Positions 29,901 to 59,009 of a DNA stretch of 64,000 nucleotides are shown piece by piece; the stretch's first letter is position 1; each line of letters begins with the position of its first letter. The notes beneath the pieces are model-generated. The model worked only from the letters and a program-made list of their open reading frames with translations, did no database searches and was not told the DNA's origin. This DNA is from TPA_inf: Saccharomyces. Lineage: Eukaryota. The position numbers and the translations under genes are program-made. The stretch is from NCBI GenBank assembly GCA_000146045.2, contig BK006947.3:224001-288000 (forward strand), given 5' to 3'.

Positions 29901-30417
29901 GATGTCATTCTGGTTAAGGTTATACACATATATATATTTTTCATTTTTAATGTCTTAGCTTTTGTATCTTAGATGAAGTTTTAGTTCTGTATATCACGAT
30001 CAAGATATCATACAATCATAAATTCAATTATTCTTCTGTTTCCCCTCTTGAGGCATCAAACGAGTGTTTGACTGATACACACCAACATACTAAGGCAACT
30101 TTTCTGGCTGCCCAAAGCTGTGGCACGTATGAAACTGCTTTTCGGCTGCATAAAACAACCATGTGGAGTTTTTACTGTATTCGCATTTCGCCCCGCTAGC
30201 ATTCTTCGTTCATGCTAAAAATGAGGCGTGGGCTAATATTCAGTATTAATAATTCCGGCACCCGCACAGCCCATACCGGAAAAGGGGCTGGCTGTTGGGC
30301 TTGGCAAAAAACTCAATCTGAGCAGTCATTTATAAAGAAAGACTTTAATTTGTCTTGCTAAACACTTGTAAGCCTTCCAAATATAGATCACTTAAGACAA
30401 TCTAACAAGTGTCCAAA

Positions 30418-31017
30418 ATGTCTGCAAACGAATTCTACTCAAGTGGCCAACAAGGTCAATATAACCAGCAAAACAACCAAGAAAGAACTGGTGCTCCAAA
30501 CAACGGTCAATATGGTGCCGACAATGGTAACCCCAACGGTGAACGTGGTTTATTTTCCACTATTGTAGGTGGCAGTGCCGGTGCGTACGCTGGATCTAAG
30601 GTGTCGAACAACCATTCTAAGTTGAGTGGTGTGCTGGGCGCCATAGGTGGTGCATTCCTTGCCAACAAGATATCTGATGAGCGTAAAGAGCATAAGCAAC
30701 AAGAGCAATACGGCAACTCAAACTTCGGAGGTGCTCCTCAAGGTGGACACAACAACCATCACCGTCAGGACAATAACAACAATAACGGTGGATTTGGCGG
30801 TCCAGGCGGCCCTGGCGGTCAAGGTTTCGGAAGACAAGGCCCACAAGGATTTGGAGGTCCTGGTCCACAAGAGTTTGGTGGTCCAGGTGGCCAAGGATTC
30901 GGTGGTCCAAATCCTCAAGAATTCGGCGGGCCAGGTGGCCAAGGATTCGGTGGTCCAAACCCTCAGGAATTCGGGGGCCAAGGTCGTCAAGGATTCAATG
31001 GCGGTTCACGTTGGTGA
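30418..31017 (+). CDS. Low-complexity G/Q/N-rich protein YNL208W (199 aa)
   Basis: MSANEFYSSGQQGQYNQQNNQERTGAPNNGQYG... has a central hydrophobic GVLGAIGGAFLA segment and C-terminal tandem GGPGGQGFGGPNPQEF units. The track ORF starts at a GTG 3 codons upstream. Confidence 0.75.
   Translation: MSANEFYSSGQQGQYNQQNNQERTGAPNNGQYGADNGNPNGERGLFSTIVGGSAGAYAGSKVSNNHSKLSGVLGAIGGAFLANKISDERKEHKQQEQYGNSNFGGAPQGGHNNHHRQDNNNNNGGFGGPGGPGGQGFGRQGPQGFGGPGPQEFGGPGGQGFGGPNPQEFGGPGGQGFGGPNPQEFGGQGRQGFNGGSRW
30877..30972 (+). repeat. Two near-identical 48-bp tandem units encoding GGPGGQGFGGPNPQEF, preceded by degenerate copies from about 30790
   Basis: Direct tandem duplication visible at the nucleotide level (ggtggccaaggattcggtggtccaaa[t/c]cctca[a/g]gaattc). 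Confidence 0.8.
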
Positions 31018-58394: not shown

Positions 58395-59009
58395 ATGAAG
58401 TTCTCTTCTGTTACTGCTATTACTCTAGCCACCGTTGCCACCGTTGCCACTGCTAAGAAGGGTGAACATGATTTCACTACCACTTTAACTTTGTCATCGG
58501 ACGGTAGTTTAACTACTACCACCTCTACTCATACCACTCACAAGTATGGTAAGTTCAACAAGACTTCCAAGTCCAAGACCCCAAACCACACTGGTACTCA
58601 CAAGTACGGTAAGTTCAACAAGACCTCCAAGTCTAAGACCCCAAACCATACCGGTACTCACAAGTATGGTAAGTTCAACAAGACTTCCAAGTCCAAGACT
58701 CCAAACCATACCGGTACTCACAAGTACGGTAAGTTCAACAAGACCTCCAAATCCAAGACTCCAAACCACACTGGTACTCACAAGTACGGTAAGTTCAACA
58801 AGACCTCCAAGTCTAAGACCCCAAACCATACCGGTACTCACAAGTATGGTAAGTTCAACAAAACCAAACATGACACTACCACTTATGGTCCTGGTGAAAA
58901 GGCCCGTAAGAACAATGCCGCCCCTGGTCCATCTAATTTCAACTCCATAAAATTGTTTGGTGTTACCGCTGGTAGTGCTGCCGTAGCCGGTGCCTTATTA
59001 CTATTATAA
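58395..59009 (+). CDS. Secreted, probably GPI-anchored repeat-containing hydrophilic cell-wall protein YNL190W (204 aa)
   Basis: N-terminal signal peptide (MKFSSVTAITLATVATVATA), 5.5 tandem 20-aa repeats, and a C-terminal hydrophobic GPI-type tail (GSAAVAGALLLL). Confidence 0.8.
   Translation: MKFSSVTAITLATVATVATAKKGEHDFTTTLTLSSDGSLTTTTSTHTTHKYGKFNKTSKSKTPNHTGTHKYGKFNKTSKSKTPNHTGTHKYGKFNKTSKSKTPNHTGTHKYGKFNKTSKSKTPNHTGTHKYGKFNKTSKSKTPNHTGTHKYGKFNKTKHDTTTYGPGEKARKNNAAPGPSNFNSIKLFGVTAGSAAVAGALLLL
58538..58870 (+). repeat. Tandem array of 60-bp units, 5 full copies plus a partial one, encoding HKYGKFNKTSKSKTPNHTGT
   Basis: Copies are near-identical at the nucleotide level and differ only at a few synonymous third positions (tat/tac, act/acc, tcc/tct). 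Confidence 0.9.

What the first reader, a model, noticed from the sequence alone, without database searches (positions are those of the whole stretch)
58538..58870. Near-perfect 60-bp tandem array in cell-wall protein gene YNL190W
There are five and a half copies of a 60-bp unit that are almost identical at the DNA level. This implies recent expansion or ongoing concerted evolution. Such minisatellites in yeast cell-wall genes are typically copy-number polymorphic between strains and change surface properties. Antisense and frame-shifted ORFs in the track (58509..58871 minus, 58546..58950 plus) are artefacts of the repeat.
Basis: seen in the sequence. Interest (0 to 1): 0.5.

Follow-up and report, generated by a model that had tools for sequence, protein, structure and literature searches.

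The report
Ancient coding repeat in yeast YNL190W
The 60-base tandem array is real and encodes five and a half copies of a 20-amino-acid module in the known yeast cell-wall gene YNL190W. It is an old, selection-maintained protein repeat shared across budding yeasts, not a young unstable minisatellite, so the finding is ordinary.

Summary
TRF finds a 60-bp unit in 5.5 copies at 58536-58865, in frame in the 204-aa ORF 58395-59009. That ORF is YNL190W by primer match and by CHS1-DUG3-X-SRP1 synteny.

- The five full units encode identical peptides (THKYGKFNKTSKSKTPNHTG).
- All 7 variable DNA columns are synonymous third-position transitions (P about 2e-5).
- Units differ at 32% of synonymous sites, about 50 times the haplotype divergence in the flanks.
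- The gene is strongly codon-biased (Fop 0.94 in the array).

DNA similarity therefore comes mostly from protein and codon selection, not from recent expansion.

The 20-aa module has the core GTHx[YW]G[KR]F[DN]KT. It recurs with the same period in positional orthologues from Kuraishia, Metschnikowia, Ogataea, Komagataella and others. Twelve of 23 proteins have exactly six cores and none has more.

Slow exchange between units is real. Units 2 and 5 are identical. One S. cerevisiae haplotype has a conversion-like cluster of changes. Two other yeasts show clean one-unit indels.

All ten S. cerevisiae haplotypes seen carry 5.5 copies, but only two of them were sampled without bias. The overlapping ORFs are by-products of the repeat.

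The parts
58395..59009 (+). YNL190W ORF (204 aa plus stop): signal peptide, repeat body and GPI-signal-like tail
   Evidence: The ORF is listed. The PMC3306391 primers match both ends. Synteny is shown. The identical protein is found in S. cerevisiae assemblies.
58395..58454 (+). N-terminal hydrophobic segment (aa 1-20), signal-peptide-like
   Evidence: Hydropathy is +1 to +2 over residues 6-16. MKFS...A(A/K) is conserved in orthologues.
58428..58450 (+). Small 9-bp repeat, GCCACCGTT x2.6, encoding ATVATVAT inside the signal peptide
   Evidence: TRF.
58536..58595 (+). Unit 1 (THKYGKFNKTSKSKTPNHTG)
58596..58655 (+). Unit 2, with DNA identical to unit 5
58656..58715 (+). Unit 3
58716..58775 (+). 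Unit 4
58776..58835 (+). Unit 5, the site of a conversion-like cluster of 5 differences in haplotype L013
58836..58865 (+). Truncated sixth unit: the core THKYGKFNKT is kept and the linker has diverged
   Evidence: The same terminal core is present in orthologues.
58947..59006 (+). C-terminal hydrophobic tail (aa 185-204), GPI-attachment-signal-like
   Evidence: Hydropathy is shown. The tail ...G(L/V)TAGSA.VAGALLLL is conserved. PMC8783092 and PMC5412306 list the protein as GPI-anchored or a wall component.
58546..58950 (+). Frame +1 ORF (134 aa), a by-product of the repeat
   Evidence: The ORF is listed. In this frame the unit-to-unit differences change amino acids. The frame is open in proportion to array length in orthologues.
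58509..58871 (-). Antisense ORF (120 aa), a by-product of the repeat

Best explanation
The array is the coding sequence for the body of the cell-wall protein Ynl190wp. It encodes five full copies and one truncated copy of a 20-aa module. These lie between a signal peptide and a GPI-attachment-type tail.

Each module has a conserved core, G-T-H-x-[Y/W]-G-[K/R]-F-[D/N]-K-T, followed by a linker of about 10 hydrophilic residues. The module and its 20-aa period are ancestral to budding yeasts. Copy number runs from 2 to 6, and 6 is the commonest value.

Three layers keep the S. cerevisiae DNA units alike:
1. Purifying selection on the peptide (shown).
2. Strong codon-usage selection in a highly expressed gene (codon bias shown, high expression inferred).
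3. Occasional exchange between units, by gene conversion or unequal exchange, which over long times makes linkers species-specific (shown).

The product is very hydrophilic (GRAVY -1.7), basic (pI 10.4) and rich in N-glycosylation sequons (11, all in the array). Its likely role is inferred, and rests on published knockout phenotypes. It probably acts as a wall-anchored, hydrated, multivalent display of the core motif that affects wall hydration and permeability, and so desiccation and solvent tolerance.
For: Anatomy:
- Array, frame and peptides.
- Hydropathy, pI, Gly 9.3% and 11 N-X-S/T sequons, all in the array.

Peptide selection:
- All 7 variable columns are synonymous transitions. P = 1.9e-5 for all substitutions and 4.6e-4 for transitions only.
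- pN is 0 and pS is 0.316 among units.
- The same pattern holds in five other species: pS 0.39-0.74, pN 0.055-0.11, with pN/pS of 0.02-0.16 in the core and 0.16-0.30 in the linker.

Codon bias: Fop is 0.83 for the gene and 0.94 for the array, against 0.35-0.61 for neighbours.

Antiquity and orthology:
- Synteny with CHS1, DUG3 and SRP1 is seen in L001, L003, L010 and L011.
- The gene lies next to SRP1 in Kuraishia, Metschnikowia and L024.
- Named hits span Saccharomycotina.
- Core spacing is 20 aa almost everywhere.
- Twelve of 23 proteins with three or more cores have exactly six, and none has more.

Exchange between units:
- Linker identity is 0.825 within proteins and 0.325 between them. 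For 86 of 92 units the nearest neighbour is in the same protein.
- The four-gamete test is violated among units.
- Units 2 and 5 are identical.
- L013 has 6 differences in the array against 1.6 expected (P = 0.006). Five fall in unit 5 (P = 1.4e-5). Four of the six are changes to states found in other units.
- Clean one-unit indels exist between L006 and L014, which are 99.6% identical, and between P0003 and P0071.

Function, from the literature:
- The knockout lowers desiccation survival (PMC3306391).
- The protein appears in wall and GPI lists.
- Expression correlates with solvent resistance, and the K. phaffii knockout raises secretion.
Against: - A strain lacking all eight non-essential hydrophilins, including ynl190w, kept robust desiccation tolerance (PMC6054528). 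The physiological role is therefore weak or redundant.
- The cap at six cores could be partly an assembly artefact, because long near-identical arrays are hard to assemble from short reads.
- No Saccharomyces sensu stricto orthologue was available. The age of the S. cerevisiae units therefore rests on pS alone, and codon bias or conversion could distort it.
- The one-unit indel in L006 could be an assembly collapse. Three independent 166-aa sequences exist, however, one of them from a non-Logan ENA assembly.
- What the conserved core does biochemically is unknown.
Confidence: 0.8

Rival explanations
1. This is a young, unstable minisatellite. The array expanded recently, is kept alike by frequent slippage or unequal recombination, and varies in copy number between strains, so changing surface properties.
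For: - Units 2 and 5 are identical, and a 180-bp higher-order period exists.
- L013 shows a conversion-like cluster.
- Two related yeasts show one-unit indels.
- The literature describes cell-wall gene repeats as dynamic (PMC7263189; PMC2566889).
Against: - pS among units is 0.32 with dN 0, about 50 times the flank divergence between haplotypes.
- Units 1, 3, 4 and 6 are identical at the DNA level between the window and a haplotype 0.66% divergent from it, so their unit-specific synonymous markers are retained.
- All 10 S. cerevisiae haplotypes carry 5.5 units.
- The identical 204-aa protein is indexed in 168 blocks, 147 of them with contigs of 0.2-1 Mb.
- The six-core architecture is shared with distant yeasts.
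- There are no length variants in M. pulcherrima or O. polymorpha.
Confidence: 0.1
2. Selection alone explains the pattern. The units are ancient duplicates held identical only by purifying and codon selection, with no exchange between them, as in the classical argument for polyubiquitin.
For: - dN is 0 with substantial pS.
- Within-array pS in other species (0.45-0.84) approaches the between-species level of 0.70-0.82.
Against: - Linkers are species-specific yet uniform within each species: pN is 0-0.21 within species and 0.42 between.
- For 86 of 92 units the nearest neighbour is in the same protein.
- The four-gamete test is violated.
- L013 has five clustered changes in one unit, three of them to states of other units.
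- Unit indels are seen.
Confidence: 0.08
3. The repeat body is an ordered beta-hairpin or beta-solenoid stack, with one rung per 20-aa module, rather than a disordered hydrophilic spacer. Uniform units and a capped copy number would then be structural requirements.
For: - AlphaFold2 with 16 sequences places two strands in every unit. pLDDT is 59-66 across the middle of the array (residues 71-140) and pTM is 0.38.
- The 6-sequence model shows a hairpin, HKY-GK-FNK, in each unit.
- The aromatic residues and glycines of the core are the most conserved positions.
- Copy number peaks at six and never exceeds it.
- The top, non-significant, fold hits are beta-solenoids such as CsgA.
Against: - Confidence is low: mean pLDDT is 52 and 41 in the two models.
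- No structural match is significant; the best E-value is 0.26 and TM-scores do not exceed 0.26.
- The unit has only two hydrophobic residues and about 30% Lys plus His.
- The protein meets the hydrophilin criteria, a class described as 50-80% coil in secondary structure (PMC3306391).
- Species with only two cores exist.
Confidence: 0.15
4. The overlapping ORFs (58546..58950 plus strand, 58509..58871 minus strand) are real genes.
For: They are long open frames of 134 and 120 aa. The same frames are also open in orthologues.
Against: - Their length tracks array length, as expected when a stop-free unit is repeated.
- Every difference between units is silent only in frame 0 and changes amino acids in these frames.
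Confidence: 0.01

Closest known systems
Intragenic tandem repeats (coding minisatellites) of yeast cell-wall genes, e.g. FLO1, FLO11 and HPF1 (Verstrepen et al. 2005; Richard and Dujon 2006, as cited in PMC2566889 and PMC7263189)
   Same: It is an in-frame, head-to-tail repeat with a unit that is a multiple of 3, in a secreted GPI-type wall protein. Exchange between units and one-unit indels occur in the family.
   Different: - Such minisatellites are reported to be usually not conserved in orthologues. This one keeps its 20-aa period and core motif across Saccharomycotina.
- The unit is Lys- and His-rich and basic rather than simply Ser/Thr-rich.
- No strain copy-number variation was seen in S. 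cerevisiae here.
Polyubiquitin (UBI4)-type repeats: identical peptides encoded by synonymously diverged units (own knowledge: Nei, Rogozin and Piontkivska 2000)
   Same: dN is 0 with substantial dS among tandem units. Peptide identity is explained mainly by purifying selection.
   Different: The ubiquitin sequence is also invariant between species. Here only the 10-aa core is conserved between species, and the linker is homogenised lineage by lineage. There is no sequence or fold relationship.
Hydrophilins / LEA-like proteins (criteria quoted in PMC3306391)
   Same: It meets the composition criteria: Gly 9.3% and mean hydropathy -1.04. It is listed among the 12 yeast hydrophilins, and the knockout shows a desiccation phenotype.
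   Different: It is secreted and wall-anchored, unlike the cytosolic Hsp12, Stf2 and Sip18. Its repeat motif is unrelated to LEA 11-mers. The 8x hydrophilin deletion had no desiccation defect.
PIR cell-wall proteins (repeat Q[IV]xDGQ[IVP]Q, linked to beta-1,3-glucan; own knowledge)
   Same: Both are short conserved repeat modules, present in variable number, in a yeast wall protein.
   Different: The protein contains no glutamine at all, so the PIR motif is absent. It has a GPI-type tail instead.

Membership tests
Coding minisatellite / intragenic tandem repeat of yeast cell-wall genes | Head-to-tail repeats with a unit of about 10-100+ bp, at least 3 copies, and a unit length divisible by 3 and in frame | tested here: met
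   60 bp x 5.5 copies, no indels, frame 0 of the ORF.
Coding minisatellite / intragenic tandem repeat of yeast cell-wall genes | The host gene encodes a secreted or cell-surface protein | tested here: met
   N-terminal and C-terminal hydrophobic segments are present. The protein is listed as a GPI or wall protein in PMC8783092 and PMC5412306. The anchor itself was not tested.
Coding minisatellite / intragenic tandem repeat of yeast cell-wall genes | Copy number is polymorphic between strains of the species | tested here: inconclusive
   All 10 S. cerevisiae haplotypes carry 5.5 units, but 7 of them were retrieved by exact protein identity, which biases the sample. One-unit indels were seen in two other yeasts. 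None was seen in M. pulcherrima or O. polymorpha.
Coding minisatellite / intragenic tandem repeat of yeast cell-wall genes | Typical behaviour: the repeat turns over faster than the host gene and is absent from orthologues (PMC2566889) | tested here: not met
   The same 20-aa period and core are found in syntenic orthologues across Saccharomycotina.
Hydrophilin | Gly above 6% and hydrophilicity index above 1 (criteria quoted in PMC3306391) | tested here: met
   Gly is 9.3% and mean Kyte-Doolittle hydropathy is -1.04, or -1.68 for residues 21-180.
Hydrophilin | Predominantly coil or disordered | tested here: inconclusive
   AF2 mean pLDDT is 41 with 6 sequences and 52 with 16. The deeper alignment gives a regular two-strand-per-unit pattern at pLDDT 59-66.
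GPI-anchored fungal wall protein | A cleavable signal peptide plus a C-terminal hydrophobic tail preceded by small residues | tested here: met
   Shown by hydropathy and by conservation of the ...TAGSA.VAGALLLL tail. No dedicated predictor was available.
GPI-anchored fungal wall protein | Covalent GPI-remnant linkage to beta-1,6-glucan | not testable with these tools
   This needs biochemistry.
PIR proteins | The repeat motif Q[IV]xDGQ[IVP]Q | tested here: not met
   The protein has zero Gln residues.
Any Pfam family or solved structure | A match above the curated threshold | tested here: not met
   No Pfam hit passes the cut-off; the best is DUF3251 at 17.4 bits against a cut-off of 23. There is no PDB sequence hit at E <= 1 and no Foldseek hit at E <= 0.001.

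The most novel reading that the evidence does not exclude
The YNL190W family may be an unrecognised family of wall proteins spanning Saccharomycotina, with no Pfam model. Its 20-aa module would be a structural rung (a beta-hairpin or solenoid) or a multivalent binding unit. Selection would keep the units within a species uniform and cap their number at six. That would explain three things together: the conserved core, linkers that are species-specific yet uniform within a species despite near-saturated synonymous divergence, and the mode at six copies.
Probability: 0.15. Interest if true: 0.45.

Novelty: already known. Interest (0 to 1): 0.2.

Why it matters
As stated, the finding is a visible feature of an annotated reference gene and belongs to a well-described class, tandem repeats in yeast wall genes.

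The added value is corrective. Near-identity of coding repeats cannot be read as recency when every difference is synonymous and codon bias is extreme.

This array also behaves unlike the reported norm for yeast minisatellites. It is conserved in period, core motif and often copy number across budding yeasts. That makes YNL190W a tractable case for asking what a conserved short wall-protein repeat does. No paper in the searchable library discusses the repeat.

Tried and rejected
- **Protein database searches for close relatives.** They returned no Saccharomyces relatives; the best hit was 57% identical, and the exact protein is absent from that collection. Comparison with sensu stricto species was therefore impossible.
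- **Verstrepen 2005 (PMC1462868).** The paper is not held, so I could not check whether YNL190W is in its list.
- **Single metagenome scan.** It gave only two S. cerevisiae contigs.
- **P0002 versus P0003 as a within-species copy-number pair.** Rejected, because their DNA has no blastn match. P0003 versus P0071 was used instead.
- **An mRNA structure in the array.** The RNA fold is not significant, with z = -1.5.
- **Fold searches.** The afdb50 library was unavailable. The PDB Foldseek search gave nothing significant.
- **Pfam.** DUF3251 and AlcCBM31 hits are below threshold and are treated as chance.
- **N-glycosylation as the conserved role of the core.** Rejected, because many orthologues have FDKT instead of FNKT.

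Full report
**Observation**

Tandem Repeats Finder reports a 60-bp unit in 5.5 copies at 58536-58865, with 92% matches, no indels and score 555. The same array also appears as a 180-bp period with 97% matches. It is the strongest tandem repeat in the window; the next scores 185.

The array lies in frame in the 204-aa ORF 58395..59009 (+).

**Gene identity**

- The YNL190w cloning primers printed in PMC3306391 match the first 19 and last 21 bases of the ORF.
- The neighbours are a 1131-aa class-I chitin synthase, a GATase (DUG3-like) and importin-alpha.
- The exact protein is encoded on chromosome-scale S. cerevisiae assemblies. The index lists it in 168 blocks, 147 of them with contigs of 0.2-1 Mb.

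**Anatomy of the array**

The five full units (58536-58835) all encode THKYGKFNKTSKSKTPNHTG. A sixth unit keeps the core THKYGKFNKT and then diverges.

Seven of the 60 columns vary among the full units. All seven are third-position synonymous transitions. The probability that seven random substitutions are all synonymous is 1.9e-5, or 4.6e-4 if only transitions are counted.

By the Nei-Gojobori method, mean pS among units is 0.316 (0.41 after Jukes-Cantor correction) and pN is 0. Two independent S. cerevisiae haplotypes differ from the window by only 0.25% and 0.66% across 3.6 kb. Units therefore differ at silent sites about fifty times more than haplotypes differ in this region.

The gene is strongly codon-biased. 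Fop is 0.83 for the gene and 0.94 within the array, against 0.35-0.61 for the five neighbouring genes. Four of the seven variable sites switch between two equally optimal Thr or Ser codons. Four of the six such codons in the unit are variable.

So the DNA looks 'near-perfect' because two-thirds of positions are fixed by the peptide and most silent positions by codon preference. It does not follow that the copies are young.

**Exchange between units does occur**

- Three blocks of variable sites (offsets 11/29, 44 and 53/56) violate the four-gamete test.
- Units 2 and 5 are identical, and this produces the 180-bp period.
- Haplotype L013 has 6 differences in the 330-bp array where 1.6 are expected (P = 0.006). 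Five fall in unit 5 alone (P = 1.4e-5).
- Four of those six changes are to states found at the same offset in other units. One, N144D, removes a glycosylation sequon.
- L020 carries a single change to the state of units 2 and 5.

Units 1, 3, 4 and 6 are identical between the window and L013. Unit identity is therefore stable within the species.

**Copy number in S. cerevisiae**

The window, two contigs found by an unbiased pattern search (L012, L013) and seven assemblies (L015-L021) all carry 5.5 units. The seven assemblies were retrieved by exact protein identity, so only two draws are unbiased. Polymorphism is not excluded, but nothing here supports it.

**The repeat is ancient**

Homologues share the same plan: a signal peptide, then n copies of a 20-aa module, then a GPI-like tail. 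They were found in:
- unnamed yeasts with CHS1-DUG3-X-SRP1 synteny;
- Kuraishia capsulata, Metschnikowia pulcherrima, Ogataea polymorpha, Spathaspora, Komagataella, Wickerhamomyces, Suhomyces and Maudiozyma.

In Kuraishia, Metschnikowia and a third yeast the gene still lies next to the importin-alpha gene.

The core G[KR]F[ND]xT recurs at a spacing of exactly 20 residues in nearly all members. Of 23 proteins with three or more cores, 12 have exactly six and none has more. Short-read assembly may bias against longer arrays.

No Pfam model, PDB sequence or solved fold matches.

**Selection versus homogenisation across species**

Core identity is 0.93 within proteins and 0.76 between them. Linker identity is 0.825 within and 0.325 between. 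For 86 of 92 units the nearest neighbour is in the same protein. Linkers have therefore been homogenised lineage by lineage.

The DNA of those uniform units is nevertheless strongly diverged at silent sites:

| Comparison | pS | pN |
|---|---|---|
| Among units, five other species | 0.39-0.74 | 0.055-0.11 |
| Among units, S. cerevisiae | 0.316 | 0 |
| Between species, core and linker | 0.70-0.82 | 0.11-0.42 |

Within species, pN/pS is 0.02-0.16 for cores and 0.16-0.30 for linkers. Homogenisation is therefore slow relative to silent substitution, and purifying selection maintains the peptides afterwards.

S. cerevisiae has the most homogeneous DNA of the six species (93% against 74-87%). This fits its codon bias, some recent exchange, or both.

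**Copy-number change in relatives**

- L006 and L014 differ by 4 SNPs in 930 bp and by one clean 57-bp unit.
- P0003 (127 aa) and P0071 (147 aa) are identical except for one 20-aa unit.
- Ten M. pulcherrima sequences and four O. polymorpha sequences show no length variation.

**Overlapping ORFs**

The +1 frame and one antisense frame are open because the unit has no stop codon in those frames. The same frames are open in orthologues, in proportion to array length. The differences between units are silent only in frame 0. These ORFs are by-products of the repeat.

**Protein properties and function**

Residues 21-180 have GRAVY -1.68, pI 10.4, 10% Gly, 21% Lys and 22% Thr. All 11 N-X-S/T sequons lie in the array. 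The protein has no Gln, Cys or Trp. It meets the hydrophilin composition criteria quoted in PMC3306391.

From the literature:
- The knockout lowers survival after desiccation. A strain lacking all eight non-essential hydrophilins is still tolerant.
- The protein is listed as a GPI or wall component.
- Expression correlates with solvent resistance, and the K. phaffii knockout raises secretion.

AlphaFold2 gives low confidence. Mean pLDDT is 41 with 6 sequences and 52 with 16. The deeper alignment yields a regular two-strand-per-unit pattern at pLDDT 59-66. This is a lead, not a result.

**Verdict**

The array is real and correctly located in YNL190W. It is a known kind of feature in a known gene.

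The claim that near-identity implies recent expansion is not supported. The suggestion of concerted evolution is supported, but as a slow process layered under strong peptide and codon selection. Strain copy-number polymorphism remains untested in practice.

The most interesting residue is that this repeat is conserved across budding yeasts and lacks any family annotation. Yeast minisatellites are reported to be usually not conserved in orthologous genes (PMC2566889).

Noticed in passing
window 30844-30996 (ORF 30409..31017 +): A second coding tandem repeat, period 24/48 bp with about 3-5 copies at 84% matches. It encodes a GGPGGQGFGGPNPQEF-type Gly/Gln/Pro-rich C-terminus of a roughly 200-aa ORF.
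   Followed up: partly
window 58428-58450: A perfect 9-bp repeat, GCCACCGTT x2.6, inside the signal peptide of YNL190W, encoding ATVATVAT.
   Followed up: no
L013 1501-2115 (window equivalent 58824): One S. cerevisiae haplotype carries N144D in unit 5. This removes one of the 11 N-glycosylation sequons.
   Followed up: partly
P0030 / P0067 (Komagataella phaffii PP7435_CHR3-0594 and -0593): K. phaffii appears to have two adjacent paralogues of the family, going by consecutive locus tags. One has a degenerate array with WGRFDKT cores at spacings of 20-27 aa.
   Followed up: no
P0008, P0048 (Ogataea), P0014 (Wickerhamomyces), P0047 (Metschnikowia): Several deposited gene models look mis-called. 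The Ogataea models (355 and 638 aa) and the Wickerhamomyces model (188 aa) lose the GPI-like tail to an aberrant C-terminal extension. The Metschnikowia model has about 80 extra N-terminal residues before the MKFS start.
   Followed up: no
L022, L023, L024: Adjacency of the YNL190W-family gene to the importin-alpha (SRP1) gene is kept in Kuraishia, Metschnikowia and a third yeast. The gene order is the reverse of that in S. cerevisiae.
   Followed up: partly
P0011, P0046, P0047 repeat arrays: Other species also show higher-order patterns among units (A-B-A-B-B or A-B-A-C-B). These echo the 180-bp superperiod in S. cerevisiae.
   Followed up: no
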